A DNA stretch of 34,185 bases from Candidatus Bathyarchaeia archaeon (GCA_049515895.1 JBEKTQ010000028.1:1-34185); one strand, 5' to 3'; counted from the stretch's first letter, positions 450 through 33,366 are shown. Translations and numbers: made by a program. The notes: generated by a model from the sequence alone, not told the origin.

Positions 450-862
450 CCATTTGCCCCCAAGCGCGCATGCATATCGAACGGCTCGTTGAAATAATTT
501 TTGAAACTGGCTCCGAATTGACCAATGGCAGTTTTCGAATTTTCAGCTTTTTCTGTGGCCAATTCTATTATCGGTTTTTCTTGGGCTAAATAGTAGATTG
601 TGGTTTTTGATACCTTGCGTTTATTTAGCCATCCCATACGGGTGAGTTGATTTAGGTAATTGCTTTCTAACGCGCGGCTTCGCCCAGTCAGATTAGAAGC
701 CTCTGTAGCGTCGCATTCGCCCTTGGAAGAGACAGATATGTATGTTCTTCGCAGGTGGTCTGGCAAGGAAAAAAGTTTTGATTCGGATATTTCTACAGGT
801 GGTGGGCTCCATTTTGACAGGTGTTTTTCAAGGTCGTCTAAACGAAAATGAATAGTTTGCAT
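437..862 (-). CDS. Winged-helix DNA-binding protein (archaeal HTH regulator)
   Basis: [10 protein letters not shown]...[32 protein letters not shown]...IYY has wHTH helix-turn-helix plus wing pattern; frame is open a further 13 codons to ATA at 901. Confidence 0.7.
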
Positions 863-1432
863 CTCACGAAATATTTTTTCAAATACCGATCTTTTGACTA
901 TTTATGTTCCCCTCTCATGATTTTCGCCTCCCCTTTAAGCCAATATAGAATTTATGATTTCTTGAGAATCTGAATAACGTTATTTGCTAATTTGCATAGA
1001 ATTTTGTCAGTTCTCCTTCGCTTGTTTGTCAAGTCGGCTTTGTAAAGAATAATTTCGAGGAGATTTAGTGTAATTTTAGAATAGTTCAGAATGAATAAGC
1101 AGCCTAAAGAGATGAGTTGTATCTGGAGTAAAGTTTGGTTTTATGATCTAGAGTTAAGTTTGGGTGCTCGTCATCGCCCGGTTCTTTTTTGGGCAGATTG
1201 ATGATCGACACGAATTACGTTCTTAAAAACTGTCATTCCTGATGTTGTGTTTAGCTTTTCAGGGTCACTTCTGCTTATATTCCTATTTCGCGGGCGCTGC
1301 AGATTCAATGGTGATTTCAGATAATTCGCACTTTGTTAGAAACTAATGTTTGCACATCCTTCTTACGACTGTAGCCTGGTTAAGTAATATTTCAAAAAGA
1401 CTATAATACAAATTCGACTATAGATTTGAGAG

Positions 1433-3424
1433 ATGATGGAGTTTCAATATTCAGAAAAGAAAAAAGTGAAACCACTCAACTTAAGGAACATACTGCATTC
1501 CATAAACCTCAGAAAGCTCACGATACCAGCGGCATTATGCCTCAGCGCACTCTTAATCCTGACAATGCTATCAGCGTTCTCATCCACTTCAGACAAAGCA
1601 ACAACAGCAGCACCTTTGCGTAGCGCGCGCTCTTCTCAACATCCAAATTATTCCGCTCCAGATGATCCGGCTGGCACTCTTTCGAGAACGATGTCACTTT
1701 ATGTAAATTATACTGCGACACCACTTGATTATGCTCCCACATTTGCAACGACAGTTTATTATAATGCTACACGAGGAGGAGAAACATCATTATTTTCCAT
1801 AGATATTATTGATTGGACTAATATTCAAGGGTACATATTCAGCACTAACGCAACTGGCAGCATGGTTAATTCAACTTACACCACGCTTTCGGGGTCTCCA
1901 ACTTCGGTGACGATTAATTCCACAGCAGTCATGCCGTCTCTTGGGAATTCTCTGCAGATTCAATGGTTCGCAAATGGCACTGATGGAACTTGGGGAAGTA
2001 GCCCAACATTTACTTATTTAAGCTACTCTGTAGCAGGAGGAACTTACGTTGCTGGCAACCAACTCTTTTACCCAAACGGAACGGTCTTAACTTTAACAGG
2101 TATGGTCTACACGTATTTCTTGGATAGTGAAGGCGGGTCATGGATGTATCCTGACGGTTCTGTCCATTGGCTAACTGACCCAATGGACACAACAGGTGTT
2201 GCAGATTTGCTTGATTTTACAGAGGCATGTAACTGTAACGTAATCAGATTGCATTTAACTGTGCAATACTGGTTAGATAACTTAGACAATTATCAGAGCA
2301 ATCTTGAATACTTCATAACTCAAGCAGCCAACAAAGGCATATACATTGATTTCGAGTTTTTCGCAGATTCATTCAATTCTACTTCTTACACTTTCAGCGG
2401 TGACCTTTGGCTTGGAGGTAATGGTGTATTAAACAGCACCGCTGATTTTGTGAATCTTTGGGGAAATACCAGCACGATCTTGAAAAACTACCCAAACGTC
2501 ATATTTGAACTGTGGAATGAACCGTCTCCACCAGATGCACCTGAAGCAACATGGATGAATGTAACGGAACAATGCATCGACAGAATACGTTCAACAGGTG
2601 CTATTCAACCGATAAACGTAATGTGGAACCAGGCAATTTACTACGATTTCGGTGACGGATACACTGGTGTAGGTGGTGCTGGTCGCACCATGAATTGGGT
2701 AACCGATTACCCGTTAAATGACCCATGCGGAAACCTAATTTACAGCACACACATATATCGTAACGACTTCTTCAATTCGTCAAACGGTTATCAGCAAATT
2801 TACAGCTACTTCGACATGAATTACGCTTTAACCTATTGTGGAGTTTATGGTGTTGCACAAAATCATCCACTTGTAATTTTCGAAATAGGTGCCAATCTAT
2901 GGGCATCAGACCCAACAAACGAAACAAACTGGCTGAACAATACTTTAACATGCCTTGACCAACACGGAATCGGCTACGCATACTTTGCTGCACCACCTTG
3001 GCGATCCGGAGCACAACAATGGGGTTTGGTCACAGAAAACCCAGACTTCACTTTAGACGCTGCGGGAGTAGTATTTATAGCTCACACGGGTGGAATGAAC
3101 TATACAGATTGGCTTACTCTTCAACAGCCAACTCCCACTCCTTCGCCGACTCCAACTCCCACTCCTTCGCCGACTCCAACTCCCACTCCTTCGCCGACTC
3201 CAACTCCCACCTCATTACAAACGCCGACATCTACTTCAACACCAACACCAGTTACAACACCGGTTTCAACACCAACCCTATCAGCATCACCAACACCGTT
3301 AACTACAGCTCCAATAGGTGGTGTTTCAACTGATACTGCGATCATCATAGCATCAGCTGTAGTATTAGTTATAGTGACGATTTCGTTCGGAGCATATGCG
3401 TACACAAAAAGAAGCAAAAAATAA
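1433..3424 (+). CDS. Membrane-anchored glycoside hydrolase family 5 (cellulase-like) protein
   Basis: GH5 motifs NVIRL, IFELWNEP (acid/base Glu), STHIY, VIFEIG (nucleophile Glu); N-terminal hydrophobic segment, PT linker, C-terminal TM plus basic tail (KRSKK). Confidence 0.85.
   Translation: MMEFQYSEKKKVKPLNLRNILHSINLRKLTIPAALCLSALLILTMLSAFSSTSDKATTAAPLRSARSSQHPNYSAPDDPAGTLSRTMSLYVNYTATPLDYAPTFATTVYYNATRGGETSLFSIDIIDWTNIQGYIFSTNATGSMVNSTYTTLSGSPTSVTINSTAVMPSLGNSLQIQWFANGTDGTWGSSPTFTYLSYSVAGGTYVAGNQLFYPNGTVLTLTGMVYTYFLDSEGGSWMYPDGSVHWLTDPMDTTGVADLLDFTEACNCNVIRLHLTVQYWLDNLDNYQSNLEYFITQAANKGIYIDFEFFADSFNSTSYTFSGDLWLGGNGVLNSTADFVNLWGNTSTILKNYPNVIFELWNEPSPPDAPEATWMNVTEQCIDRIRSTGAIQPINVMWNQAIYYDFGDGYTGVGGAGRTMNWVTDYPLNDPCGNLIYSTHIYRNDFFNSSNGYQQIYSYFDMNYALTYCGVYGVAQNHPLVIFEIGANLWASDPTNETNWLNNTLTCLDQHGIGYAYFAAPPWRSGAQQWGLVTENPDFTLDAAGVVFIAHTGGMNYTDWLTLQQPTPTPSPTPTPTPSPTPTPTPSPTPTPTSLQTPTSTSTPTPVTTPVSTPTLSASPTPLTTAPIGGVSTDTAIIIASAVVLVIVTISFGAYAYTKRSKK
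3128..3210 (+). repeat. Perfect 24-bp tandem repeat x3.5 (ccaactcccactccttcgccgact) encoding PTPTPSPT
   Basis: Units start at 3128, 3152, 3176 and a partial unit at 3200. Confidence 0.9.
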
Positions 3425-4105
3425 AATAAACCTCGTCCTTCTTAACATCGGACGTAAGACCAACTTCGACTGGCTCGTCTATGCGTCATCGCATCCAAAC
3501 TTGATTTTAGAGAAGTATTGAGCAGGCTAAGTGCCTTAACCAAAATTGTTTTGGAAGGCGTTTACCTTATTTGATGGGTCATAATACCGAGGACAACACC
3601 AACAAAATCCACTCGCAACATAGTCACGACTGGCTATCTATAAATATCACAAAACCCGATTGAAACGTTAAAAAGGAGATACATACGGTTGGAGCTTTCA
3701 AGAGTTAAGTCTTGTAGCATCTGCCAGAATCAATTAAAAAAAGTTTAGTCTGTATCCAAGTGTGGTAGCAGAAGGCAAGAGATCTGAAAAGCTCAATATG
3801 CCGATTCAATGGTGATGTTAGGAGCAAGGTCTCCGTGGAAAGTTCTTTTCGAACTACAAGATCGAGAGGATAGGTGAGTGCGCGCGGAGTAGAAAAGCAT
3901 AACCTGAAATGAAGCACAGCGAGGCTAGTGCGAACGACATTTTCAGCGTAATTGAACCTCAGTTCTTGTGGAGACGTCTCCCGAAGTGCAATCTGGTAAT
4001 CGGCTTTTCGCTATTTTGATATACCAACCACCATGAAGGCTCGCTCCCAAATAAACTACGCCATGGAAGGTGCCACTATACTTCTTCTTAACGCTTTCAA
4101 AAAAG

Positions 4106-4825
4106 TCATCCTGACTGTTTTTGGGCTAAAACTGCGTTCCAAGGCGATTCAGCTTTAGTGAATACTTTGACACCCACAAAATCAACTGACCGCATAGTAT
4201 TTCGTATTTCTTCCAATGGAATAAGGCGCACGTGGGTTTCCTCAATCAATTTTGGATACTTAACTTCGTACACCCCGTCCTGAACCATTTCATTCACCAG
4301 AAGCAGTTTTCCGCCTGGCTTCAGCACCCGTTTTATTTCCACTAGGGCATCGCGAAAACTGAGCCAAAAATAATAGGTTTCAAAAGCTGTCACTAAATCA
4401 AAATAATCGTTGGGAAAACTCATTTTCTCAACTGACCCCTCAACTATTTGCACACGGTTTTGGGCAATCAGCTTTTTGTTCACTTTTTTGGAATAATCTA
4501 CCATGTCAGCTGAATAGTCGATGCCGAAGACTTTTCCTTGGGGGGCCTGCTGGGCTAATCTGCTAACTGTTTTGCCGCCTCCACAGCCCACATCCAAAAT
4601 TACATCGTCAGATGCGATTTTTACCGTTGTTAGTCCCCACAATGTAAGCGGTTCGTGTCTTTGGTTCATCAGTTTGGCGGCTAATCTGCCTGGGCGACCC
4701 GATGGGCATCGATATTGGTCCTTTAATCCAAACTTCCCCGCCACTATTCGAGTTAGCGCGCGTTCAAGGACATATTCGAGGAACGCCTTTGGATTATGCT
4801 TAGATTTTACTTTCGATCGCTTCAT
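4106..4825 (-). CDS. Class I SAM-dependent methyltransferase (true start possibly GTG at 4744)
   Basis: Motif I ILDVGCGGG, GIDYS, FDLVTAFETYYFW, RVLKPGG. Confidence 0.85.
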   Translation of the reverse strand: MKRSKVKSKHNPKAFLEYVLERALTRIVAGKFGLKDQYRCPSGRPGRLAAKLMNQRHEPLTLWGLTTVKIASDDVILDVGCGGGKTVSRLAQQAPQGKVFGIDYSADMVDYSKKVNKKLIAQNRVQIVEGSVEKMSFPNDYFDLVTAFETYYFWLSFRDALVEIKRVLKPGGKLLLVNEMVQDGVYEVKYPKLIEETHVRLIPLEEIRNTMRSVDFVGVKVFTKAESPWNAVLAQKQSG

Positions 4826-5097
4826 GATTAATCCTTTTCATTGAAGGGAGCAAGGAGGTTTTTGGTGCGCAACCGCGGCATGCATTACTCTTTCTCCCCT
4901 GTTCAAGTATTCAGGTTCTGTCTAATAGTCTTGCGTTGATATTCGGTTTTGACTCTGATGTAGCGCGCAGATTCATTTGGTGATCTCAAGAGTAGGGTCT
5001 CTCTGTGGAAAAAGTCCTTTTCCCACTATAAAATATCGCGCTTTTGGTAAATCCTTCTCTTGTAGAGGTCATTTGTCGTTTTGTGCTATAAGGGTGT

Positions 5098-5292
5098 CTA
5101 AACTCGCATTAGAACTGTAACCAGAAAAGCTAAGCCGCAGCCGAGGGCTGCTAGCCTCAATTTTTTCTTGTCTATACGGAATTGTGCTGAATACTCTGGT
5201 AGTGAAAGCAGCAGTTCTGATGTTATCAGTAATATTATGGCTGTGACTGCAAGCCAGAGACTTATGTCTGACAATGATAAAGGAAAATCCAT
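5098..5292 (-). CDS. Small two-TM membrane protein
   Basis: Two hydrophobic helices; starts 6 bp after the stop of the upstream gene. Confidence 0.7.
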   Translation of the reverse strand: MDFPLSLSDISLWLAVTAIILLITSELLLSLPEYSAQFRIDKKKLRLAALGCGLAFLVTVLMRV

Positions 5293-5298
5293 TTTACG

Positions 5299-6132
5299 TC
5301 AACCTTGCACAATTTGATACTCTGTATCTATTGTTGAATCATCTGGGTGTACATCGGTCCTTTGTATTGTGACAGTTTTTCCTGTTGCCATGGCGAGGGC
5401 ACAGGCAATGGCGCTGGCGATTGGGCAGCCGAGAAAATATATACTTTTCAGTTTGTAGTCGCGGTTGTAAAGGTTTTTGTAAAGTGAGTCGCGGATTGTC
5501 AGTTTGACTCTGTCTGCCTCTGCATTCATGGTTAAGTCTTTAGCTACGTTGAAGTCTTCTAATATGATGCGGGGCAGCACTTCGCATAATTCGTTTAGTT
5601 CTATTTTTGTGATGTTTGGGATTTTCTTTTCGATTTGGTTGAGGAGGCCTATTCCGGGTGGCGCTACGAGTATGCCTTTTGGGTTTGTGAGTAGGAATTT
5701 GCCTTGGGCAGTTTCTTCAATCGAGGGCAGGGTATCATTTTTTTCGGCTGCGATGAAGACAATTGTGTCTTTGAGTCCTTTGAGATGTTCTGGAAGGTAT
5801 GCTTCTCGGGGGTAAGACGGTACGTAGCAGCTTTTTCCGGTGTACTTGAAATCGTTGATTATTCGGTCAATTGTTGAGTACGTTGAGACTGCTGTGCTGG
5901 TTAGGAGATTGCTTTCAACGTAGCGTACTGGTGTCACGAGGAGGAAAAGGGCGCCCCAGAAGGTTAAACCTAAGCCTGTGAAAGCTAAGATTTGGGATGA
6001 TGCGTAAACTGCGAAGATGAGCGCCAGGATACCTGCAATCAGGAAGTTTACGCTGATTAGGCTTGAAGTTGAGCGTCTGATTTTGCGTTTTTGCTTTTCA
6101 GATTTGGGTTTTTCTGCAGGGTCCTTAGACAT
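5299..6132 (-). CDS. Hypothetical membrane protein (two N-terminal TM helices, soluble C-terminal domain)
   Basis: 277-aa ORF, N-terminal hydrophobic pair, LGCPIASAIACALA motif, operon context. Confidence 0.7.
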   Translation of the reverse strand: MSKDPAEKPKSEKQKRKIRRSTSSLISVNFLIAGILALIFAVYASSQILAFTGLGLTFWGALFLLVTPVRYVESNLLTSTAVSTYSTIDRIINDFKYTGKSCYVPSYPREAYLPEHLKGLKDTIVFIAAEKNDTLPSIEETAQGKFLLTNPKGILVAPPGIGLLNQIEKKIPNITKIELNELCEVLPRIILEDFNVAKDLTMNAEADRVKLTIRDSLYKNLYNRDYKLKSIYFLGCPIASAIACALAMATGKTVTIQRTDVHPDDSTIDTEYQIVQG

Positions 6133-6229
6133 TTGGGCGTTGCCTTACGGATTATTTGATACTGACTTCTTTAAGTTTTCTGAAAACTGCCTACACTCTC
6201 CACGTGAGACACTGATTACAAATTAGGCA

Positions 6230-6853
6230 TTAAGTGGTCATGTTAAACCCTAAAGATGCGAAACGCTCGTGATATTGAAAATTGCTTATTGTGCTATTGT
6301 AAATCCAGAGTTCAAAGACGAGGTTTCCGTAGAAGACTTTTTTTTGTGCATCCCATGGCGAGTAGTTGTTGGCAAGATTTAGATTAACACCGTTGAGAGT
6401 CAACTGGTTATAGTCAATTTGTGATTGGGTTTGGTTATAAGTGTATTCAAACGAAAAACTCAGAGGTAATTCCCATGTTTGCTTGTCGGCTACAAAAGCT
6501 GTTATGTTGTAAAGTGAGGGCAAACTGCTGGCGGTAAGGTTAAAAGGATTGGGAGCTGACTGATTTTGATTGCGGAATTTCACTTCTACTTGGTAATAGG
6601 CGCAGTAGCCTAAGTGGTTTGCGGCACCTAAGTAAATGGTGTAGTTTTCGTTGCTCGTTACGTTGTATGGGAAGTTTGCGGCGGTGTGTTGAGGACCAAG
6701 AAGGTAAAATTCCGTGAAAAATTCTGTTTGGGGAGAAACAAGGAAATGTTGGAGTGCAGGGGAAGCCACAATTAACGCTGAAACAGCTGTTATGATGAGT
6801 ATTAACCCTTTGTATTCTCTAGGATTCATCTGTTTGTGCTCCCGATGGCTCAC
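6230..6853 (-). CDS. DUF1616-like membrane-anchored protein
   Basis: N-terminal TM then EFFTEFYLLGP...A.NFPYNV...ANHLG...Y.VEVK, typical of the DUF1616 domain. Confidence 0.7.
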   Translation of the reverse strand: MSHREHKQMNPREYKGLILIITAVSALIVASPALQHFLVSPQTEFFTEFYLLGPQHTAANFPYNVTSNENYTIYLGAANHLGYCAYYQVEVKFRNQNQSAPNPFNLTASSLPSLYNITAFVADKQTWELPLSFSFEYTYNQTQSQIDYNQLTLNGVNLNLANNYSPWDAQKKVFYGNLVFELWIYNSTISNFQYHERFASLGFNMTT

Positions 6854-7307
6854 ATTTTCTTTTCAACTTATACCACAATATTGTGCCGGCGGCGATTACA
6901 GCAAGAGTTCCAGCAATTGAAGCAGCTACAATCAAGGATTCTTGGTTTTCTTGTTGAATGGCTGCAACTTTTAGATCGTTTGCTTGGGAAATGAAATTGT
7001 CAAGTTTTGATTGGCTTTGGGTTGCGAGATTGATGGCTTGGTTAGAGTTTCCTGTGAAATAAGCTAGCTCGGCTTGGGACAGCAATGCGCCGGCATTGTT
7101 GAGGATATTTGTCAAGCTTGTAATGTTGGCACCTGCGGCGTCTGCTTCTTTGGCCGCGTTATAACAGCTTTGGATTTGGCTCTGAGCTGTAGATATGGAG
7201 GTTGCCGCTCCAGACTGTTCAGCCAAAACATTTGATGGCAAAGCACCAAGAGATAACACTATGAACATGGCTACTAGCAGAAGCTTGGCGTGTTTTTTAA
7301 ACATCAA
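6819..7307 (-). CDS. Helical secreted/membrane protein with signal peptide and C-terminal TM
   Basis: Signal-like N-terminus, Ala/Gln-rich helical body, C-terminal TM plus basic residues; overlaps the DUF1616 start. Confidence 0.7.
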   Translation of the reverse strand: MMFKKHAKLLLVAMFIVLSLGALPSNVLAEQSGAATSISTAQSQIQSCYNAAKEADAAGANITSLTNILNNAGALLSQAELAYFTGNSNQAINLATQSQSKLDNFISQANDLKVAAIQQENQESLIVAASIAGTLAVIAAGTILWYKLKRKCEPSGAQTDES

Positions 7308-7461
7308 TTGTTTTTCACATATGTGCGTTTCTCAATTAATGATTGCCCATTGAGGTAATTTCTTTGTTCTTAAATTTAGGTTAGCAAATTTAAGTATTCT
7401 TCACTCTTCCAGTGCTTTGCTGGGTTCGGGTCGGCCACGACGTTTCGCCAATGGCGCCAAG

Positions 7462-9362: not shown

Positions 9363-9476
9363 TTTTGTTCACCCACTTCTCATGATAGCGTAATATAAAG
9401 ATTATATCAGATTGCTCTATAACGTGAGTACAATTTCAGGGTACCCTTAGGCGCGCTCCCTTGTTTATTCTCCTTA

Positions 9477-10496: not shown

Positions 10497-10736
10497 AAGT
10501 GTTCCATCATTATGACATAATCCACTTAGTGGAATCGTGCAAGTTTGGCATGCGTATATAGCGCGCTGCGCGCGACTAGTCACCGCGCGACATGGGGATG
10601 CCTAATACCCCAAAAGGCCTCCTCGAAGGGTAGTGCTGTTTGAACTTGCTTAAGGAGAGATTCCGTTAAGAGTTTTTCCCTACAACAAAAAGCAGAATTC
10701 ATTCAATCTCAATAATAAGTGGATGCGCAGGGTTCC

Positions 10737-11987: not shown

Positions 11988-12524
11988 CTTTGTTTGAGCG
12001 CTGCCTTGTCCCTGTAATAGTTAAAGTTATCTTTTTGGACTATCCAAGTAATAGACTAATTCTTGAGAACATCGCAAGGGCGGTCTGAGCGTTTGCGTTC
12101 CAGGTTTTCCCAATTCATTGGTAAAGTGCGAACAATTCCGTAAGAGGTTAAACAGCTCAGATTTGCCCTCAAATCAAAAAATAAGAGTCATAACCATTTT
12201 ATTCCAATTTCGGGACAAGCCAGCGTGCGCTACAGGAGTACCTCAGCATTTATAATCTTACTAAGGCGCTGGTTGAGACAGCAATACCAAAGATAGGGAA
12301 CAATGAAGCCCGATCTCAGGATCGAGACGTGATATTTGTCGTAATGCATGAGGTTAAGTTAAAGTCGAATATCATAAATTGAGTGCGCGCGCTATACCTG
12401 CTTTAGAGTGAAGTCTGCAAAATCACAAATGGTCGGTGCGTTCAAAAACTTTACCTCTCCGTTTAAGAATCAAGTAATTTACCTAGAAACTGGTCCATTT
12501 TCATTTGCCTAGCGCGTTCGTTGA

Positions 12525-14638: not shown

Positions 14639-14882
14639 GACATCTCACCTGTAAATGACTTAAAAATAAACTGTGCTTCTGCTTGTATCCTATTATTTGC
14701 CCCGTTTGTTCTGTTTCCTAAAGGAAGGCTAACAGTTTTTAAAGAAGTCAACTAATTCCCGATTTTTTGATCGGCCCTAGCGTGAATTGTTGTTTCGAAA
14801 TTGGTCAAAATTATCATATTCCATTTCTTGCTGTCTGTCCATTGCGCGCGCGACGCGTACTATTCGCTGATTTCTTTTTTGT

Positions 14883-16046
14883 TTAATGTGTTAGTGCGTC
14901 TAGATAAACGTTCAAAGTTCTCTTGGCAATAGCATCCCAAGAGATTTCTATTGCGTGTTTTCGGGCAGCATTTCCTAACTCTTTTCTTAAGTCAGGTTTG
15001 TTCATGAGTTTCAGAATAGCATCGGCTAGAGCCTCTGGGTCGTTTGGAGGAATTAGAATACTGCAGTCTTTTGAGTATTCAGTTGTTCCTCCAATGTTTG
15101 TCGCGATTACTGGTGTTGCGTTTGCCATTGCTCGCGTGAGAATACTGCTTCCATGAACAGGTTTTGTGTAGATAGCAAAAGTGAACATGCTCTCTTGCAT
15201 TTTTCTGTCAAATTCGTCTTCGCTCAGTCTTCCGCCCCAAACAATGCAATCCTTCACGCCCAATTCTTCAGCGCGAACATCCGCAGATTCATTTTCTGAT
15301 GCACTATAAATCCCGTAAAAATGAACCAGAATCTTTTTTCCTTTTTTCTTCAGTATTTTTAGTGCTTCGAAAAGGACGAATACACCTTTTCCTTCTACGG
15401 GAGCTCCGAAGAAAGTTATTTCATTCCTTTCTTTAGATAATAGGGTAGGAATCTTCGCTCCGTGAGGAATGACTGTTATTATAGAAGCGTCTGTCCCAAT
15501 TGAGATCAAGCTTTCTCTCATTTCTTTTGAGTGTACTGTTATCCTATCCGCTTTGTTGTATATTTGCTTATATATTACCTTGAGTACTTTTAGCCCCCAC
15601 ATAGTTTTGTCTATTTCATGGGCTGTTATGATTTTCTTATTGGAGGTGGGGATCAACATAATTGGGAACAATGGCAGCATCCCAAGTGAATAAACACTCT
15701 GCTGATAATGAATGACATCATATGATTTGCATTTAGCAAGATAACCGACTCCGCGTAGGAATTGTAAGGAAACTTGAAGAACCACATTAAGTACACGGCT
15801 TACTGGGTTCTTGGGGTATGTGTAAACATATGGTGGGAAGTTGACAAATTGACAGTTTTTGTCATGTAGCTTGTTCTCTACTCCGGTGAATCTTGAGCGC
15901 GCGCAAAAGCAATGGGAAGACACAACGCTCACAAGAACAAAGGGAAGTTTTTCAAGGCTATCTCGTAGATTGTAGGAATAATTAGTCACGGACAAATCCG
16001 TGTACCAACATGTTATGAGTCCGATTTTTATGGTCAAATTTCTCAA
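14883..16046 (-). CDS. Glycosyltransferase family 4
   Basis: ITAHE, IPHG, FFG...KG, AMANATPVIATNIGG, SWDAIA. Confidence 0.85.
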   Translation of the reverse strand: MRNLTIKIGLITCWYTDLSVTNYSYNLRDSLEKLPFVLVSVVSSHCFCARSRFTGVENKLHDKNCQFVNFPPYVYTYPKNPVSRVLNVVLQVSLQFLRGVGYLAKCKSYDVIHYQQSVYSLGMLPLFPIMLIPTSNKKIITAHEIDKTMWGLKVLKVIYKQIYNKADRITVHSKEMRESLISIGTDASIITVIPHGAKIPTLLSKERNEITFFGAPVEGKGVFVLFEALKILKKKGKKILVHFYGIYSASENESADVRAEELGVKDCIVWGGRLSEDEFDRKMQESMFTFAIYTKPVHGSSILTRAMANATPVIATNIGGTTEYSKDCSILIPPNDPEALADAILKLMNKPDLRKELGNAARKHAIEISWDAIAKRTLNVYLDALTH

Positions 16047-16283: not shown

Positions 16284-16365
16284 AAAATTCTCCTCTGTTT
16301 AGCGCGCACTAGTCTAATTCTCTCACATTTTCCCATCATTATGATCAAAACGTCCATTTGCTATG

Positions 16366-17373: not shown

Positions 17374-17493
17374 ATATGATCACCGGAGTAATGGTCACTT
17401 TTTGTTTACATCAGCCAAAGAAATAGGAATCCCCTTTTTGGGCGACTCGACGCGCGCGTGGCTGTTCCGAAATTTGGTCAAAAATGGTTTTTA

Positions 17494-17868
17494 TTAGGCG
17501 ACTTTAGGTATCTGCGGACAATTTCGCGAATTGCATCCGGTTTTGGTCTCTTTGCAAAAGCCACCTTTCTCAAACCTGCGCAGATGCTTTAGGCGGGAGA
17601 AAGGAAGATGGACAAGCTCAATTGAAGAGTCTAAGAGTGCGGCAGAAACCTGCTTCTTAGCTTTAGGCGGGACGTCATAAACATACTTTGGCCTCCCAAG
17701 ACCTGGAGAAACTATTTTTTCCCGCGCTAATACACCTTCGCTTAACAATTTCTTAATATGCAGTTTTAGAGTGTTGTGAGAAAACCCCACCTCATCAAGG
17801 AGATCAGTGAAAGGTTTTGGCTTCCCAATCTTCAAAACAGAGAGAGTTCGCTCATCGATGATATCCAT
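17494..17868 (-). CDS. ArsR-like winged-helix protein with Cys-rich C-terminus
   Basis: FTDLLDEVGFSHNTLKLHIKKLLSEG...GRPKYVY wHTH; C-terminal CKETKTGCNSRNCP. Confidence 0.8.
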   Translation of the reverse strand: MDIIDERTLSVLKIGKPKPFTDLLDEVGFSHNTLKLHIKKLLSEGVLAREKIVSPGLGRPKYVYDVPPKAKKQVSAALLDSSIELVHLPFSRLKHLRRFEKGGFCKETKTGCNSRNCPQIPKVA

Positions 17869-17890
17869 GATTAAACCATGTCAAAACGGA

Positions 17891-17905
17891 CTTAAAACCA
17901 TTTTT
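17891..17905 (-). promoter_or_regulatory. Putative BRE/TATA promoter inside the right inverted repeat
   Basis: Minus strand AAAAATGG-TTTTAAG ending 23 nt before ATG 17868, the usual spacing for a leaderless archaeal transcript. Confidence 0.45.
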
Positions 17906-17936
17906 AGCCAATTTTAGGAACAAACATGCGCGCTAC

Positions 17937-19040: not shown

Positions 19041-19491
19041 AACCCCACCTTATTACTTTCTCGTAAATATTGAGTACATAAATAACTCATTTATGAAAAA
19101 TTGGTTCATATTAAGAGTTCATGCGAAACGCTGATAGAAGATACTCGGGGCGGATCTAAGTGAAAAAACGAACAAACAAGCGCGCGGTCGATCTTTGCGA
19201 TAGCCCCGAGTTTTTATAGAGCTTTATTGTGAATCCCTGAGTTTGTTCATACATCTTGTTTCTCTGAATTCTTTCTCTGGTTCAAATATTCCAGCTATAT
19301 GCTGTATTAACTATGTAACAACGAAATATGACACTAGAACCACACTATATTGATCGAGAATACACTTTCCAATTAGGGCACTCTCCAACTCAATTTGCCA
19401 GGTCCATAATTTCGGATAAAGCCTTCAGAAAGCAGTTATTCATGTAGCCCCCACTTTGAATGTCTGATGTTTTACATTCAAGTGCAAAGTT

Positions 19492-21956: not shown

Positions 21957-22182
21957 ATGTTTCTACCTCCGCAAATTCTATTCTATCGTTCTCGAACTCT
22001 CTTGAGCCAAATTCCTTGCGCGCAAGCCTTCTGGCCGCCTCTTGTTCATATACTTTCAATTTTGGATATTTTGTTTTGCAGATAACAGATTTCTTTCTTT
22101 ACGAAGAGAAAAGTTGCGCGCGCACTTTTGTTCAACTCTCAAAGGCTCTTCTTTCATTGTTTCTATTTTTGTAGCGCGCTAA

Positions 22183-25799: not shown

Positions 25800-26083
25800 T
25801 TTTTTTCAGATACTCCTTACCAAGGGCGCGCGCTAATACGACATCATCTACAGTGAGCTGAACCAAGAGATGCAAAGGAACTCGATTAGCGCATTAGGGA
25901 AGCAGAGCAATGCGAATTGAAACGTAAGGAAGAAGCTGAACAAGAGTGGAAAGAGCTCAAAACCAAAGAAGAACGTCTAAGAAGAGAATGGCTTAAAGCG
26001 GGTGGAATTGAACAATAGCAAATCTCGCGCTTAACTACGCCTGTTTAGAAAAGAAGGGTGCAACCAAGGGGGATAGTTTTCCT

Positions 26084-26887: not shown

Positions 26888-27086
26888 CTTCGACGCCTTC
26901 GTCAGCGATGGCAACACAAAAGGCGCATGACAATATTTCTCACATCTCATCATGTTCCGTCATCACATCCCCTTGCTCTACACTGTGGCGCGCGCTTTAG
27001 ACTTTTCACAAACTTTCAACGAGCCAGCGCGCTAGTCTTTCAAAGATTGGCGCCTTCAAAACACAAAATAGGTTATTGAGCAAAGC

Positions 27087-29210
27087 CTATCCAGAATGCT
27101 GATAAACTAAGCTATTGCCATTGTCGTATACCAAATTTGAGCTGTTAAATACTGAGGAAAGATCAGTGGAATTCCAGGTTAATGTGGAGCCAACTATTAT
27201 TCCATACTCAACATTTAATGTATTCAGATAAATAACACCGCCCGTTCCAATCGTTGTTACGTTGCTCAAAACGGTATAGTTGTAGGTTAAACCATAAATA
27301 AAATCGTTTTGTGACGGTACATCGGCATATATGGGTTGATTTGAATTAATGTTTCTCGCCAACCATTGAGCGCCAAACACACTGTGTGCGTCGGTGTACC
27401 CCATGTCGTAATATAAGTAGAAGGGACTCATTCTGTTCTTGGTTAAAAATGAATAACTTTCATTTTTTGTTATCTCGTATACGAAGCCTGTTTGAAAAAG
27501 AAAATAGGGAACCAAAACCAGCAGCAACAGAATAGAAACCCAAAATATTCTTTCTCGCTTGGACACAATTTTGATCAATGTAGCCCCACCTAGTACACAC
27601 AAAGGAGCCAACAAGAACAACAGTATATGATAAAACCGAGTCATGTTAAGGGTGTTTGCAAGTCCCGGTACTACTACGAGAGACACCAGAAACGCGACAG
27701 CCGTTAGTATGAAGACGAAATACTGGTCTCCAAACTGATGTTTCTTCAATTTTTGCAATGCCAAACCAAGGAATCCAACCGCTAAAAGTGCTTCTGTAAC
27801 ATATGCTATTGCCCGACTAATCGTGTTCCAAATCGAGGGCGCCGATGCTAATCCCAGACCTGCTAATACGGTGCTACCCCGCGAACTTAGGCTGAAAAAA
27901 GAACTAAATTGATCCCGAACGTAAGTTCCGAACAATATAAAACTGTTGAAAGTGGATCCGCTTGATGTGTAGATGTACCATGCAAACATTGCAACTGAGA
28001 AGAGAACAACCAATCCTGCTGTTACCTTTCTGATTGAACTTTTCAAAAAGATCGAAGCGATCATGGATACAAAAGCGAATAACAAGAAAATCTCTGCAAG
28101 TGAATAATGTGACACAATCAGGGCAGCGCCAAAAACCATGAAACATATTACCTTATCAAAGTGCTTCAGTTTATTGTTAAAGAGGATAAGCAATAGCAAA
28201 GCAAAAAACAGTTCAGCAATCATCTGTCTATTTAGAGCTAACATTTCTGTGTAGAACGTTGATTGAGCCATTAACAGAAAAGTAGAAATGAAAGCATATT
28301 TTGCTCCAATTTGTTGTTTCCATACATAGTATAAGGTTAGAGGTACGAGAGAAAAGAGAAATGGAGTGAGTAGCTTGAACATCCAAGTGGGATCTAAGTT
28401 AAGTAGGGTTGAGTATGTCGTTGGGAGAATTGTTATGCTCAACATCGAATTGAATCTGCCAAAAATTACATACCCTGGGAACGGATTGGTTGGACTCCAA
28501 TAGGCATTAGTTTTGGTAATACTAAAGGCGAGGAATTCACCACCGATGTCTGAGCCGAATGTAACTAAATAGGCGGATATTAAAGAAGATTGAAAAAGAA
28601 TCGCGATAGCGCTCATCAATATAGCTACTGGATAAAATTTCGGAGGCAGAAATCTCTTTGACAAAACTCCTACGGAAAATAGCAAGGCTATCAAAATTAT
28701 CGTGAAAAGGAGAACTAGATTATTCGCATAAGAATTTACGATCGTCGCTCCCACGATGCTCAATACGGGAAGAGCCAAAAATAAGAGAACGGATGGAGCA
28801 GGCATGCTGAATGTTTCAGATTCTGAAGCGGTGACATGTTCACCTCTCAGAAAAACTATTACTCCGCCCAGAAGTGTAAGACCGCTTAAAATGATTAGCA
28901 AAGGCATGAGCGAGAGAGGCCGCGGAATGTTGAGTAAGAAAAAGGATTCATTAATTAGTAAACCAGAAAACATCAAGAAGGCTAAACTGAATCCTACAGA
29001 AAAAAGCAAGCTAATAACTAAGCCTACCCTCTTATCCAGCCTTAATAGTTTAACAAAAACAAAACCTGGAACAAAAGTGAAGTAAACAAAGCCAATAATT
29101 TGCCTGGCAACTGGAACATTAAAGAAGATTGTCACGTACAATATGAATTGCAAAAATAGCATGGCTATCAGGAAATTAAATGGTCTGCGTTGGATTATGG
29201 TGGGTGTCAT
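27087..29210 (-). CDS. DUF2206-like multi-pass membrane protein (possible GT-C fold glycan transferase/polymerase)
   Basis: 707 aa, many TM helices, FVPG, SVGFSLAF, G.D...E, SMLSITILP, RQMIAE, SHYS, R.YH motifs. Confidence 0.75.
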   Translation of the reverse strand: MTPTIIQRRPFNFLIAMLFLQFILYVTIFFNVPVARQIIGFVYFTFVPGFVFVKLLRLDKRVGLVISLLFSVGFSLAFLMFSGLLINESFFLLNIPRPLSLMPLLIILSGLTLLGGVIVFLRGEHVTASESETFSMPAPSVLLFLALPVLSIVGATIVNSYANNLVLLFTIILIALLFSVGVLSKRFLPPKFYPVAILMSAIAILFQSSLISAYLVTFGSDIGGEFLAFSITKTNAYWSPTNPFPGYVIFGRFNSMLSITILPTTYSTLLNLDPTWMFKLLTPFLFSLVPLTLYYVWKQQIGAKYAFISTFLLMAQSTFYTEMLALNRQMIAELFFALLLLILFNNKLKHFDKVICFMVFGAALIVSHYSLAEIFLLFAFVSMIASIFLKSSIRKVTAGLVVLFSVAMFAWYIYTSSGSTFNSFILFGTYVRDQFSSFFSLSSRGSTVLAGLGLASAPSIWNTISRAIAYVTEALLAVGFLGLALQKLKKHQFGDQYFVFILTAVAFLVSLVVVPGLANTLNMTRFYHILLFLLAPLCVLGGATLIKIVSKRERIFWVSILLLLVLVPYFLFQTGFVYEITKNESYSFLTKNRMSPFYLYYDMGYTDAHSVFGAQWLARNINSNQPIYADVPSQNDFIYGLTYNYTVLSNVTTIGTGGVIYLNTLNVEYGIIVGSTLTWNSTDLSSVFNSSNLVYDNGNSLVYQHSG

Positions 29211-29633
29211 CAGTAGATCACTTTTCGAATTTGTCTCTTTGATTTGAAACCAATAAATCGAGATTATAAGTAAGTAGTTACAACCAAAATTACCTATGGT
29301 TAGCCATACTACTCAGAACTAGACTCTGGGGACAATACAAAATCCAAAATACTGAGATTTTATTTTCGTAAGTACCATCATGCATAACGCGCGCTTTTAG
29401 TTTACAAGCGCACGCTTAGCGTTGAGTCTTGTACCATAAGACTTAATACGTGCTTTTGTATTCTGGTTACCTCTAAAGGCATGACAAAAAAGCATCACGG
29501 TCAATCAAGATAATGTTTCCAAGCGTCTGCAACCTGTATTTGTGTAGTTCACATTAACACGAAAGTGTATTAAGAATACACAAGTCTCTTAAACCAAAGA
29601 AACCCAAGGAAATGTGAAGGCAGAGCGGTCCCC

Positions 29634-31229: not shown

Positions 31230-32327
31230 TCATGTAACAGTATTTTCCAAATCAACGCGTTGATTTTTGAATTGATTCAGGTTCACAGCAATCGATCGTT
31301 GCTCAATCAGAGACTTCTCGATACATTCCAATAGATTGACGGCGTCACGACCTTGTTCCGGCAAGATAGGAGGCGGAAGATCTTTTTGGATATTCATAAT
31401 ATACCTGCTAATTAGCTTGAAATGAGGAATCATTTTTCGCTTCAACATATAATTTAAATCGAACTTGGTCCATTTCTTCAAAGTCCGTTTTTCATCCGCA
31501 AAAAAACTTCTTGCAACACCACCGGGAGTTAGTGGTGGTAAAGCAGTATTCTCTAGAAAGTAGTCGAAATCTCGATAAATTTGTGCTCGTTTCCCTTTGG
31601 AATCACACATCTCGTAGACTATTTCGGTCTCCTGCGATATCCATGAAAGGTCAATGAGACCTGAATTTTCATTTGATGCTCTTAGCAAAACGGCAAAATG
31701 ATCATACACTGGATGTTTAGCTTTGCCACCAACTGCATAAACCTCTTTAATATCGTTTAAGAAATGCAATTGAAGATAAGCGAGATGGCAACAGACTTCC
31801 CATATAATTCCTCTTTGCTCAGGCATCACCATCCAATCTGAAGCAAGCCCGAGAGCTTTAAGGAGCTCAAAACTCTCTTTTTGCACTGTTTTGAATGAAA
31901 CAAGATCAAAAACTCCTTTATCAATAAGTGCCTTAGCTCTTTCGATTGACGGAAGGAAGATTTGGTTGTGTCCGACGCAGAGTTTACTGTTGTGTTTTCT
32001 AGCTTCAGAAATCATATCTTCACATTGAAATGTGTTAAGAGCCATAGGTTTCTCCACAAGGACAGCAGGAACAGCCTTGACCGCATCGCAAACTATACGT
32101 TGGTGAGTCGAAACTGGAGTGCACACATCGACTAATCCAAGATCTTTGATGTCAAGAAGATCATTATAGTCACCAAAGACTTTCTCCACGTTGAATCTAT
32201 GCCCAAGTTTTTTCGCTCTTTCGAGATTTAGGTCACAGACACCGACAACATTCACGTCCCTAATGCTTTTGAGAACTCTCATGTGAACGTTAGCGATTCC
32301 ACCACAGCCTATAAGCCCGACATTCAT
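31230..32327 (-). CDS. Gfo/Idh/MocA family oxidoreductase
   Basis: GLIGCGGIA, VCTP...H, VEKPMA. Confidence 0.88.
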   Translation of the reverse strand: MNVGLIGCGGIANVHMRVLKSIRDVNVVGVCDLNLERAKKLGHRFNVEKVFGDYNDLLDIKDLGLVDVCTPVSTHQRIVCDAVKAVPAVLVEKPMALNTFQCEDMISEARKHNSKLCVGHNQIFLPSIERAKALIDKGVFDLVSFKTVQKESFELLKALGLASDWMVMPEQRGIIWEVCCHLAYLQLHFLNDIKEVYAVGGKAKHPVYDHFAVLLRASNENSGLIDLSWISQETEIVYEMCDSKGKRAQIYRDFDYFLENTALPPLTPGGVARSFFADEKRTLKKWTKFDLNYMLKRKMIPHFKLISRYIMNIQKDLPPPILPEQGRDAVNLLECIEKSLIEQRSIAVNLNQFKNQRVDLENTVT

Positions 32328-32396
32328 AACAACCCGCCAACGAAGGTAAGTAATTGGAAGTACAAATATTAGCGTGTTAATATGTATGCTGTTGTT

Positions 32397-33299
32397 TCAG
32401 TTCCATGCAGCTCTTGAATCTAGACGGCCTTTAAGAAAGCCGAGCAGCCATGCTATTCTTTTGAACAAATAATGCAAAGGTAATAGAAAAGAGATTTTTC
32501 TTCGAGTTAATCTATAGGCATCTGGGATTCTAAACATTTCAATTGCAATTGCAATTGGTGGCACCATTTTATGAAGGTTAAGCATCCTTGGATTTTTGTC
32601 GAATAAGTAACGCCATGCGTAGCCATGCCAGAAATATTCTTTCCAGAGCGATCTCCAGCTGTCTCTACGGTGCTCATAGAATCTTGCTTCTGATACGTAG
32701 AGCGCCCAACCCTTTGCTCTAATTCTGTCTTCGATGTCGTTATCCTCTCCAGCACCTTTAATTCTCTTGTCAAACCCACCTACCTGTCTTATTGCTTTTG
32801 TTCTATAGATACATCCTGATGCGCCTAATGATTTAGCGTTTGTCTCACCAGTGTGTTGAAAGCTTAAAACCAGCTCAATGTTTTCTAATGTAGCTATTGG
32901 TTCTTGATTCTCCAGAACACCGTATTTTCCTTTGGCTATTCCGACAATTGGGTTTCTTTCCATGAATTCTACCTGTTTCCGGACATAATCACTTGGAAGT
33001 ATCATGTCGCCATCAACCCAAACTATGTAATCTCCTTGAGCGTTCTCAACCACAGCTTGCCTCGCTGAACCTAACCCCTGATTTTCTCGGAAAAACTTGG
33101 CCGTCATTTTTAGTTTGTAAAGATAACTTTTAATGATAGAAATGGTCTTGTCAACACTAAAACCGTCAACAACAATTAATTCGGTACTTTCGTGAGGAAA
33201 ATCTTGGACAACTATGCTTTCAATTGCCTCTTTGACCGTTGACGCTGCGTTCTTTACAACTAATCCTACTGTGACTTTGCAAGCTATCAAATCTCCCAT
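32397..33299 (-). CDS. Glycosyltransferase family 2
   Basis: IVVDGFSVDKT, VWVDGD (DxD), VGGFD, GED. Confidence 0.9.
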   Translation of the reverse strand: MGDLIACKVTVGLVVKNAASTVKEAIESIVVQDFPHESTELIVVDGFSVDKTISIIKSYLYKLKMTAKFFRENQGLGSARQAVVENAQGDYIVWVDGDMILPSDYVRKQVEFMERNPIVGIAKGKYGVLENQEPIATLENIELVLSFQHTGETNAKSLGASGCIYRTKAIRQVGGFDKRIKGAGEDNDIEDRIRAKGWALYVSEARFYEHRRDSWRSLWKEYFWHGYAWRYLFDKNPRMLNLHKMVPPIAIAIEMFRIPDAYRLTRRKISFLLPLHYLFKRIAWLLGFLKGRLDSRAAWN

Positions 33300-33366
33300 C
33301 TTTGAGATAACTCCGAAAACCCGACTATTATTAGGTGATAGTTATCTTCTTATATTTGAAGCGCGC

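What the first reader, a model, noticed from the sequence alone, without database searches (positions are those of the whole stretch)
464..33366. GCGCGC/(GC)n tracts mark nearly every gene boundary of the glycan cluster
By eye, perfect GCGCGC occurs at about 23 loci: 464, 1623, 3880, 4756, 4963, 9451, 10561, 10568, 12385, 14844, 15897, 16302, 17452, 17928, 19180, 22018, 22116, 22174, 25826, 26988, 27027, 29389, 33361. There are also near-matches (12223, 12512, 16120-16132, 23423, 23596, 26025, 29408). At roughly 41% GC only 2-3 are expected. About 19-20 are intergenic, often 3-30 bp from a stop or start codon, and 464 and 4756 lie just upstream of probable starts. None occur in the tightly packed block 5098-9362 or in 31230-33299. 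Inference: these are recombination/insertion junctions at which single genes were added, giving an integron-like cassette array without attC sites.
Basis: partly seen in the sequence, partly recalled or inferred. Interest (0 to 1): 0.88.

Follow-up and report, generated by a model that had tools for sequence, protein, structure and literature searches.

The report
GCGCGC landing sites between accessory genes
A six-letter GC palindrome really is packed between the genes of this archaeal sugar-coat gene cluster, but it marks the variable, mobile-element-rich part of the whole genome and the spot where its jumping genes land, and nothing shows an integron-like cassette system.

Summary
There are 23 GCGCGC tracts (30 overlapping matches) against 3.0±1.8 expected. 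Nineteen are intergenic, and 15 of 24 spacers carry one.

It is not specific to the glycan cluster. GCGCGC is the most over-represented hexamer in all non-ORF DNA of this 3.18-Mb archaeal genome. The excess lies in the flexible genome: 2.4% of spacers between genes shared with the closest congener carry a tract, against 13.8% between unshared genes (p=6e-17). The window is the densest island.

Every intact IS5/IS1182-like IS or MITE end abuts the hexamer. Seven copies in a congener fit a 4-bp CGCG target duplication. One window unit, the HTH gene at 17452-17933, is such a TIR-bounded element.

Only 27 of 918 tract flanks show TIRs. Boundaries of single-gene insertions are not enriched. Homologous genes in other genomes lack tracts. 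Independent metagenome contigs show no cassette-level variant.

Best reading: a preferred, duplicated landing site for transposons that accumulates in flexible islands. The cassette-array reading is not supported. The origin of most solitary tracts is unresolved.

The parts
464..469 (.). GCGCGC tract, in the 3' end of ORF 437-862 and 15 nt upstream of the TTG start of ORF 3-449
1623..1630 (.). GCGCGCGC tract inside the GH5 ORF (N-terminal region)
3880..3885 (.). tract in the convergent spacer 3425-4105
4756..4761 (.). tract in the N-terminal part of the methyltransferase ORF 4106-4825 (probably coding)
4963..4968 (.). tract in spacer 4826-5298, 138 nt upstream of the methyltransferase start
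9451..9456 (.). tract 20 nt after the stop of the FemAB-like gene and 89 nt before the DUF362 start
10561..10573 (.). double tract GCGCGC-T-GCGCGC in spacer 10497-10736
12156..12229 (-). remnant of a MITE/HTH-element end; its terminal hexamer has decayed (GCGTGCGC at 12223). Read depth is 2-5x in three runs and loose ends lie at 12109/12225
12385..12392 (.). GCGCGCGC tract in spacer 11988-12524
14844..14851 (.). GCGCGCGC tract 31 nt after the stop of GT4 gene 14883-16046
15897..15904 (.). GCGCGCGC tract in the N-terminal part of the long GT4 ORF (start codon uncertain)
16302..16307 (.). tract 58 nt after the stop of the epimerase gene
17452..17933 (-). 482-bp element: GCGCGC, a 34-nt TIR, a 124-aa winged-HTH gene (17494-17868), a TIR, GCGCGC. 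The arms are 40 nt and 83% complementary, with IS-B-like terminal sequence
19180..19185 (.). tract in spacer 19041-19491; its left flank matches the TIR core weakly (TTGTTTGTTCG)
22018..22023 (.). tract 62 nt upstream of the radical-SAM gene start
22116..22123 (.). GCGCGCGC tract, paired with 22174 at a 50-nt gap
22174..22179 (.). tract 3 nt after the stop of GT4 gene 22183-23337
25826..25833 (.). GCGCGCGC tract in the divergent spacer, 27 nt upstream of the FkbM-methyltransferase start
26988..27032 (.). pair of tracts 31 nt apart in the convergent spacer 26888-27086
29389..29394 (.). tract in the divergent spacer 29211-29633, with near-match GCGCACGC at 29408
33361..34185 (+). left end of an IS5/IS1182-like IS (IS-A type): GCGCGC directly followed by the TIR CAGTTTGTTGCTAA, then the transposase ORF from 33443. 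The contig ends inside the IS

Best explanation
GCGCGC is a genome-wide mark of the intergenic DNA of this archaeon's flexible (accessory) genome. It is the preferred landing site of the genus's IS5/IS1182-like insertion sequences and the MITEs derived from them. The glycan cluster is the densest such island.

Shown:
- The hexamer is the top over-represented word in non-ORF DNA.
- It sits at background level between core genes and is 4-fold enriched between unshared genes.
- All intact ends of three IS types, a MITE and a small gene-carrying element abut it on both sides.

Inferred:
- The transposases cut the target with a 4-nt stagger and duplicate CGCG. The element termini C...G then regenerate GCGCGC on both sides, so each insertion into a hexamer adds one more.
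- Tracts therefore accumulate, together with the elements, in islands where insertions are tolerated. They then decay by point mutation, which leaves the near-matches.
- They are not recombination sites of a cassette system.
- Most solitary tracts are unoccupied or formerly occupied landing sites. Why they are so numerous is only partly explained.
For: (1) Genome-wide signal. 339 per strand against 84 expected from dinucleotides in 776 kb of non-ORF DNA, rank 1 of all hexamers under order-1, -2 and -4 models; depleted in ORFs.

(2) Flexible-genome bias. Spacers with a tract: 17 of 715 (shared|shared with G003), 62 of 624 (mixed), 108 of 785 (unshared|unshared). Fisher p=6e-17, or 2e-14 without the window's contig. 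In-ORF tracts show no bias. GCGCGC is the top hexamer separating the two spacer classes at equal GC (184 vs 27, z=8.5). G003's own tracts show the same gradient (0.117, 0.228, 0.340 per kb). Core DnaJ loci: 20 of 23 have no tract, whereas G000's accessory DnaJ copy has 4.

(3) Element ends. IS-A, IS-B, IS-C, a 165-bp MITE and the window's HTH element are each bounded by the hexamer. The TIR core lies at the exact offset in 21 flanks against 0.8 at control offsets. Seven IS-B copies in G016 (six 97-99.8% identical to the reference copy) have invariant CGCG next to termini C...G, with only the outermost base varying (G..C x5, G..G, A..T; 11 of 14 ends are perfect hexamers). Decayed TIR copies carry decayed hexamers at the same offset.

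(4) Scaling across six congeners. GCGCGC counts of 571, 348, 223, 195, 113 and 87 go with TIR-adjacent pattern counts of 21, 19, 6, 3, 0 and 1 (Spearman 0.94; n=6 and the genomes are related, so this is weak).

(5) Proximity. Within accessory spacers, density is 0.58 and 0.44 per kb within 5 and 5-20 kb of an element end, against 0.27 beyond, with the two big hotspots and the end-tracts themselves excluded.

(6) Short pairs of tracts (<100 nt) are in excess, 23 against 9.4 expected.
Against: - Only 27 of 918 tract flanks have a recognisable TIR core, and only 4-5 of the window's 23 tracts lie at a recognisable element.
- No empty site was found, so the 4-bp duplication is inferred from seven occupied sites only. 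A TIR that includes CGCGC with no duplication fits the same data.
- Insertion followed by precise loss gives no net gain. Excision footprints would be C/G-flanked runs of 8-10 nt, but most tracts are exactly 6 nt with A/T flanks (362 of 459 are 6 nt; -1 is C in only 60).
- Far from any recognised element, accessory spacers still have 0.27/kb against 0.12/kb in core spacers.
- The window exceeds ordinary accessory spacers 7-fold, and this model does not predict that.
- The correlation across congeners cannot tell whether elements create tracts or thrive where tracts exist.
Confidence: 0.5

Rival explanations
1. Integron-like cassette array. Each tract is the junction left when a single gene was inserted by a recombination system that recognises GCGCGC.
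For: - 15 of 24 window spacers carry a tract, while tightly packed operon-like blocks have none.
- Nearly all genes are co-oriented, and old paralogue pairs (32-35% identity) stand in shuffled order.
- The HTH gene is a real single-gene unit bounded by tracts, and its homology to the G016 copy ends exactly at the hexamer.
- Homology of the accessory beta-CASP gene to congeners ends 13-50 nt before a G000 tract.
Against: - Boundaries of single-gene insertions relative to G003 carry tracts in 9 of 236 cases, near background.
- The GT4-deacetylase pair in G020 and the beta-CASP gene in 5 congeners have no tract in 4-4.4 kb.
- No integrase or recombinase family appeared among the 28 window ORFs scanned.
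- There is no conserved flank or attC-like structure.
- X2 contigs bridge 12385-29389 with no difference, and no joint lies at a tract other than MITE forms (contigs cannot exclude rare variants).
- The same enrichment occurs in non-glycan islands.
Confidence: 0.07
2. Protein-binding or epigenetic site. A dimeric DNA-binding protein or a methyltransferase recognises the palindrome and regulates, insulates or silences accessory genes. Transposons merely exploit the same sites.
For: - It is a perfect 6-bp palindrome with a weak symmetric TA flank.
- It is the top intergenic hexamer.
- Tracts are under-represented within 60 nt of start codons (10, against 23 within 60 nt of stops, in co-oriented spacers). 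In the window several lie 60-90 nt upstream of starts.
- Hotspots are rich in small HTH regulators.
Against: - There is no fixed distance to starts or stops, and tracts occur in all spacer types, most densely in convergent ones.
- Tracts are not conserved with the genes they flank: 3 of 3 non-element comparisons (GT4-deacetylase, beta-CASP, accessory DnaJ).
- Counts vary about 6-fold among congeners.
- A C5-cytosine methyltransferase is found in G000 and G014 but not in the GCGCGC-rich G016 and G003 (N4/N6 enzymes were not tested).
Confidence: 0.2
3. Self-complementary microhomology. GC-rich palindromes in AT-rich spacers are the favoured joints of illegitimate recombination. Segments of different origin, mobile elements included, therefore end up joined at GCGCGC.
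For: - Repeat boundaries coincide with the hexamer at 0.144 per copy against 0.007-0.063 for ten control hexamers, and 51 of 459 tracts lie at a boundary.
- At least 11 different repeat families start in register at a tract.
- Tract frequency rises from colinear spacers (1.2%) to rearranged (5.4%), island boundary (5.9%) and island interior (11.2%), and rises with island size.
- Both G000 copies of the beta-CASP gene have a tract 65-108 nt beyond the end of their mutual homology.
Against: - Breakpoints examined base by base lie near the tract, not on it.
- 408 of 459 tracts are not at any detectable repeat boundary.
- Single-gene insertions are not flanked by tracts.
- No nuclease that would expose such ends was identified.
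Confidence: 0.13
4. Structural (GC)n element, such as Z-DNA forming or supercoil-absorbing, or the recognition site of a restriction-modification system.
For: It is an alternating GC sequence, and the hexamer equals the BssHII-type site (the site name is recalled, not from a call).
Against: - 362 of 459 tracts are only 6 nt long.
- Density is highest in convergent spacers, not in divergent ones where negative supercoils collect (the supercoiling expectation is recalled).
- Alternating GC runs are generally suppressed in prokaryotes (PMC4060949, passages seen).
- Restriction sites are usually avoided, not enriched (recalled).
- Core spacers are at background.
Confidence: 0.05

Closest known systems
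Target-specific IS5-family insertion (IS5 group: short palindromic target of the CTAG/YTAR type with a 4-bp duplication; recalled from ISfinder-type knowledge, not from a call)
   Same: DDE_Tnp_1 + DUF772 transposases of about 307-333 aa with short TIRs. The ends fit a 4-bp duplication of a palindromic core. Derived MITEs are present.
   Different: The target core is CGCG within GCGCGC, which was not found in the searched literature (listings only). The transposases score below NCBIfam's curated cut-offs for the IS5 and IS1182 families. The target word is itself the most over-represented intergenic hexamer of the genome.
REP/BIME extragenic palindromes and the IS elements that insert into them (recalled; related papers seen only as listings)
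   Same: Short GC-rich extragenic palindromes, biased to 3' sides and convergent spacers, that serve as specific landing sites for IS elements and vary strongly in number between related genomes.
   Different: REPs are imperfect palindromes of about 20-40 nt that form hairpins and have conserved sequence. Here only a bare hexamer is shared and flanks are unique. No REP-type extended motif was found, and no RAYT-type transposase was looked for.
Integron gene-cassette arrays (attC sites, IntI integrase)
   Same: Co-oriented genes separated by a recurring short sequence in a variable locus.
   Different: No attC-like imperfect inverted repeat, no integrase, no attI/Pc, and no evidence of cassette exchange.
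GC clusters of yeast mitochondrial DNA (recalled)
   Same: GC-rich palindromic islands in AT-rich intergenic DNA that are linked to rearrangement junctions and vary between strains.
   Different: Those are mobile elements of about 30-60 bp with recognisable families. Here the unit is 6-10 bp and is not demonstrably mobile on its own.

Membership tests
Integron cassette array | attC-type recombination site (imperfect inverted repeat with conserved core) at each cassette boundary | tested here: not met
   No conserved flank around the 459 tracts, and no asymmetric or hairpin context.
Integron cassette array | Adjacent tyrosine-recombinase integrase | tested here: not met
   Pfam scan of 28 window ORFs found no integrase or recombinase family. 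The only mobility gene is a DDE transposase at 33443.
Integron cassette array | Cassette gain, loss or reshuffling with breakpoints at the sites | tested here: not met
   X2 contigs are identical across the tracts, and the only joints are MITE forms. Boundaries of single-gene insertions carry tracts in 9 of 236 cases. No close variants of the cluster exist in the metagenome collection, so the test is incomplete.
IS5/IS1182-type insertion sequence with target-site duplication | DDE transposase of the family | tested here: inconclusive
   Pfam DDE_Tnp_1 + DUF772 score above their cut-offs. The NCBIfam IS1182 and IS5 models match at E 1e-24 to 1e-44 but below their curated cut-offs.
IS5/IS1182-type insertion sequence with target-site duplication | Terminal inverted repeats at both ends | tested here: met
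   IS-A, IS-B and IS-C in G000 and seven IS-B copies in G016.
IS5/IS1182-type insertion sequence with target-site duplication | Short direct duplication of the target flanking each copy | tested here: inconclusive
   CGCG lies directly outside termini C...G at 14 of 14 ends of 7 copies, and only the outermost base varies. This is consistent with a 4-bp duplication, but no empty site was found.
MITE | Short non-autonomous unit with the TIRs of a resident IS, in several copies | tested here: met
   165-bp unit at C26:45870-46034. TIR-to-TIR joints in runs X1 and X4. TIR matches in many congeners.
REP/BIME-like extragenic palindrome | Conserved imperfect palindrome of about 20-40 nt able to form a stem-loop | tested here: not met
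   Only the hexamer is shared, and flank base frequencies are near background.
Core promoter or intrinsic terminator element | Fixed distance and orientation relative to start or stop; T-run or TATA context | tested here: not met
   No distance peak, presence in all spacer types, and no T5 or TATA enrichment at an offset.
Z-DNA-forming (GC)n tract | Alternating run long enough to flip (about 10-12 bp or more; threshold recalled) | tested here: not met
   362 tracts of 6 nt, 83 of 8, 13 of 10 and 1 of 12.
Restriction-modification recognition site | Cognate methyltransferase or nuclease present wherever the pattern occurs | tested here: inconclusive
   PF00145 is found in G000 and G014 and not in G016, G003 or G001. 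Other methyltransferase classes and nucleases were not searched, and specificity cannot be read from sequence.

The most novel reading that the evidence does not exclude
GCGCGC acts as a universal, orientation-free 'sticky joint' of this lineage's flexible genome. A staggered cut at G^CGCG C, made by the resident transposases or an unidentified nuclease, would let any DNA segment that ends in the palindrome be cut out and re-ligated at any other hexamer. That includes IS, MITEs, the small HTH-gene units and ordinary genes. Islands such as this glycan cluster would then be assembled and reshuffled gene by gene without attC sites or an integrase.
Probability: 0.1. Interest if true: 0.85.

Novelty: new variant of a known kind. 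Interest (0 to 1): 0.5.

Why it matters
A bare 6-bp word separates the flexible from the core genome of an uncultured peat archaeon better than any other hexamer. The same word is where its transposons land.

If the landing-site reading is right, it gives a simple sequence predictor of where insertions and island growth will occur in this genus. It would also be a new target specificity for IS5-like elements, and an example of how target duplication can write a compositional signature into a genome.

For the glycan cluster, it means the cell-surface sugar genes sit in the most insertion-prone DNA of the genome. That would favour rapid variation of the surface.

The part that remains unexplained is why hundreds of solitary, A/T-flanked hexamers exist in accessory spacers. 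This can be tested with strain-resolved metagenomes.

Tried and rejected
- **Extended motif.** Flank base counts and in-register BLAST of 918 oriented flanks gave only small families (29 flanks in 11 families) and no general motif.
- **Promoter or terminator role.** No distance peak, no T-run or TATA context.
- **Glycan-specific feature.** Rejected, because other hotspots encode AFOR, DnaJ, beta-CASP, regulators, surface proteins, Cas1 and ABC transporters.
- **'Housekeeping genes also flanked'.** I first read the C10 hotspot this way. I withdrew it when its DnaJ and beta-CASP proved to be accessory copies.
- **Synteny of the window with relatives.** No DNA-level synteny in 30 relatives apart from short repeats, one epimerase stretch and a GT4-deacetylase pair in G020. 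The metagenome scan returned only the source contig and one 56%-identity locus, which I did not analyse further.
- **Empty-site search.** Flanks of two G016 IS-B copies were never adjacent in the 41 genomes searched. No G000 element end lies between anchors colinear with G003.
- **Read evidence.** All four runs are contigs. Parts without cover in X3 and X4 are low depth and say nothing. No joint at a tract other than 17493>17892 (X1) and 17495>17883 (X4), plus a 67-nt skip at 10303 in one X1 contig of depth 3. Rare variants cannot be excluded.
- **First small synteny sample (800 kb of G003).** Not significant, and superseded by the full comparison.
- **C5-methyltransferase link.** Not supported.
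- **Excision-footprint origin.** Poor fit to tract lengths and flanks.
- **Recent duplication of paralogues within the cluster.** Rejected; they are 24-35% identical.
- **Not used.** Structure, complex and atlas tools were judged irrelevant to a DNA-motif question.

Full report
**Observation.** The window is a whole 34,185-bp contig (C28) of a 3.18-Mb, 53-contig genome. GCGCGC occurs 30 times counting overlaps, as 23 separate tracts at exactly the coordinates listed. 100 dinucleotide-preserving shuffles gave 3.02±1.83 and at most 8. The genes form a surface-glycan cluster: three GT4 and one GT2 glycosyltransferases, a DegT aminotransferase, an NAD epimerase, a polysaccharide deacetylase, FemAB-like acyltransferases, two MiaB-like radical SAM enzymes, methyltransferases, DUF2206, DUF1616 and a GH5. 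An IS transposase lies at the right end. A TFIIB-type factor elsewhere in the genome and the domain repertoire point to an archaeon. With curated starts, 19 tracts are intergenic and 15 of 24 spacers of >=20 nt carry at least one. The two tract-free stretches and the near-matches are as described.

**Not a property of this cluster alone.** Genome-wide there are 459 tracts. In 776 kb of non-ORF DNA, GCGCGC is the most over-represented of all hexamers under order-1, order-2 and order-4 Markov models (678 on both strands against 167.5, 250.7 and 485.3). In ORFs it is among the most depleted under low-order models (456 against 1018, rank 4053 of 4096). A published survey found alternating GC runs of >=6 nt to be generally suppressed in prokaryotes (PMC4060949, passages read), so this goes against the usual trend. 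The window has the highest density of any large contig (0.67 against a mean of 0.144 per kb). A second hotspot, C10:100-125 kb, encodes an aldehyde:ferredoxin oxidoreductase, DnaJ, a beta-CASP RNase, a CBS protein, an HTH protein and two IS. Further hotspots hold hypothetical ORFs, regulators, surface proteins, a solo Cas1 and ABC transporters.

**Not a promoter or terminator signal.** Tracts occur in convergent (0.446/kb), tandem (0.297) and divergent (0.264) spacers, with no peak of distance to starts or stops. When oriented by the neighbouring gene they show no T-run, TATA-like box or other asymmetric context. In co-oriented spacers they lean mildly toward the upstream gene's stop (KS p=0.04; 23 within 60 nt of a stop against 10 within 60 nt of a start). 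Outside the hexamer only a weak symmetric A/T preference is seen.

**A mark of the flexible genome.** I compared all 2758 crude G000 ORFs with the complete contig of the closest congener sampled, G003 (about 78% DNA identity in core DnaJ).
- A tract occurs in 17 of 715 spacers between two shared genes (>=50% aa identity): 2.4%, 0.120/kb, which is about the dinucleotide expectation.
- It occurs in 62 of 624 mixed spacers (9.9%) and in 108 of 785 spacers between unshared genes (13.8%, 0.466/kb).
- Fisher p is 6e-17, or 2e-14 without the window's contig. Tracts inside ORFs show no such bias.
- GC content of the two spacer classes is equal (0.398 and 0.401). GCGCGC is the hexamer that separates them best (184 against 27, z=8.5), followed by its one-step variants and a MITE-TIR word.
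- G003's own tracts show the same gradient (0.117, 0.228 and 0.340 per kb, p=0.03).
- Of 23 DnaJ loci other than G000's accessory copy, 20 have no tract in about 4 kb and 3 have one. The accessory copy in the C10 hotspot has 4.

The motif is not a general regulatory or chromatin signal.

**Link to mobile elements.** Every intact IS end in G000 abuts the hexamer.
- The IS-A type reads GCGCGC|CAGTTTGTTGCTAA...; the window's 33361 is such a left end.
- The IS-B type (38% aa identity to IS-A) reads GCGCGC|TGGTTTGTCCCGAAATT....
- A third type on C12, a 165-bp MITE on C26 and the window's 17452-17933 unit are likewise bounded on both sides.
- A loose TIR core stands at the exact offset next to the tract in 21 flanks, against about 0.8 at 44 control offsets.
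- Decayed TIR copies carry decayed hexamers at the same offset, including the window's near-match at 12223.
- Seven IS-B copies at different sites in G016, six of them 97-99.8% identical to the reference copy, share invariant ends N|CGCG|C-TIR...TIR-G|CGCG|N'. Only the outermost base varies (G..C five times, G..G once, A..T once).

The simplest reading is inferred, because no empty site could be found. It is a 4-bp CGCG target duplication with element termini C...G, so that insertion into GCGCGC yields a hexamer on each side. The transposases carry DDE_Tnp_1 and DUF772 domains and resemble the IS1182 and IS5 models below their curated cut-offs. Literature searches for such a target found nothing relevant (listings only).

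**Quantitative limits of the element link.**
- Only 27 of 918 flanks have the TIR core.
- Only three places in the window's non-coding DNA match repeats elsewhere in the genome (12156-12229, the two TIRs, and the IS).
- Boundaries of repeated DNA fall at the hexamer at 0.144 per copy, against 0.007-0.063 for ten control hexamers. Even so, only 51 of 459 tracts are at such a boundary.
- Pairs of tracts closer than 100 nt are in excess (23 against 9.4), but most tracts are solitary.
- Across six congeners the GCGCGC count (571, 348, 223, 195, 113, 87) rises with the count of TIR-adjacent hexamers (21, 19, 6, 3, 0, 1) and roughly with transposase matches. Five further IS-rich congeners have 178-340. 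The genomes are related and few, so this is suggestive only.
- Within accessory spacers, density is about twice as high within 20 kb of a recognised element end. This holds when both big hotspots and the end-tracts themselves are left out.

**Tests of the cassette idea.**
- Relative to G003, tracts are found in 6 of 502 colinear core spacers (1.2%), 8 of 147 spacers between core genes that are not colinear (5.4%), 31 of 524 boundaries between a core gene and an unshared block (5.9%) and 63 of 564 spacers inside unshared blocks (11.2%). Each step is significant.
- Frequency rises with block size, from 9 of 236 at single-gene insertions to 38 of 270 inside blocks of nine or more genes. Tracts are thus linked to rearranged and inserted DNA, but single added genes are not flanked by them.
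- The GT4-deacetylase pair shared with G020 has no tract in 4 kb there.
- The accessory beta-CASP gene is 79-92% identical in five congeners, none of which has a tract in 4.4 kb. Their homology to G000 ends 13-50 nt before G000's tract.
- Contigs of an independent run (X2) are identical to the window and bridge the tracts from 12385 to 29389. The only joints near tracts join the two TIRs of the HTH unit, that is, MITE-like copies. These are contigs, so rare variants are not excluded.
- No closer variant of the cluster exists in the collections searched.
- The paralogous genes inside the cluster are old (24-35% identity).

**The one true cassette.** The 124-aa winged-HTH gene at 17494-17868 is weakly Lrs14-like, below cut-off. 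It lies between 40-nt inverted arms capped by the hexamer. It has three paralogues in G000 at only 49-65% identity, each with the same kind of capped TIRs, and a copy in G016 whose homology ends exactly at the hexamer. This family of about 480-bp units carries a single small regulator gene, presumably moved in trans by IS-B-type transposase.

**Verdict.** The tracts are real and highly non-random. The best-supported reading is that GCGCGC is the preferred, duplicated landing site of the genus's IS5/IS1182-like elements. It accumulates in the intergenic DNA of flexible islands, and this glycan cluster is the extreme case (7-fold above other accessory spacers). The integron-like cassette reading is not supported beyond the HTH unit. 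The origin of most solitary, A/T-flanked hexamers and the reason for this cluster's extreme density remain open. A protein-binding role, or a role as a general microhomology joint, is not excluded.

Noticed in passing
window 17452-17933; G000 C12:24570-25055, C26:4759-5230, C18:60106-end; L008 (G016): A family of about 480-bp units, each made of IS-B-like TIRs capped by GCGCGC around one small winged-HTH gene (120-124 aa, weakly Lrs14-like). The copies are only 49-65% identical in protein but keep the TIRs. TIR-only (MITE) forms exist at C26:45870-46034 and in runs X1 and X4.
   Followed up: partly
window 3-449 (-), 3100-3320 (+); many other contigs: Long Pro-Thr repeat linkers in predicted surface proteins (the GH5 protein and ORF 3-449). 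Their DNA cross-matches dozens of PT-repeat regions elsewhere in the genome.
   Followed up: no
G000 C10:112136-113263 and C10:122104-123501: The C10 hotspot carries a second, divergent DnaJ (64% to the core copy on C3; close homologue only in G034). It also carries an accessory beta-CASP RNase present in 5 of 24 congeners at 79-92% identity, with another copy on C6 (85%). Chaperone and RNase genes behave as island cargo here.
   Followed up: partly
G000 C14:63623-64684: A C5-cytosine methyltransferase domain in circularly permuted order (profile positions 184-322 come before 3-194) lies inside a 1011-aa open frame. A colinear homologue exists in G014.
   Followed up: no
G000 C34:4766-5950 (L005): A Cas1 gene stands in a GCGCGC-rich contig next to IS ends. 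No other cas family appeared among that contig's 18 ORFs of 100 aa or more that were scanned. I did not check whether it is a casposon or part of a CRISPR locus.
   Followed up: no
window 9477-24750: Old paralogue pairs stand in shuffled order on one strand: radical SAM g11/g19 at 32% identity, and GT4 g12/g20 at 35%. The FemAB-like and deacetylase-like pairs are not detectably similar by BLASTP.
   Followed up: partly
window 33361-34185 and ends of C26, C34, C36, C45: Several contigs, the window's included, end inside IS copies. The assembly breaks at these elements, so true IS copy number, and the number of hexamer-flanked ends, is under-counted.
   Followed up: no
G003:C1 about 300-320 kb, 360-380 kb, 500-520 kb: The congener G003 has its own local GCGCGC hotspots (6-9 tracts per 20 kb). 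Fragments matching the IS-A/IS-B transposases and IS-B DNA lie in or beside the first two (313.5 and 351.7 kb). Their gene content was not annotated.
   Followed up: no
G016 L025; G000 C11:14119-14135 and 16977-17060: IS and MITE ends pile up against each other at the same hexamer, with an IS-B end directly abutting an IS-A or MITE end. This is as expected if the hexamer beside an existing element is itself a target.
   Followed up: partly
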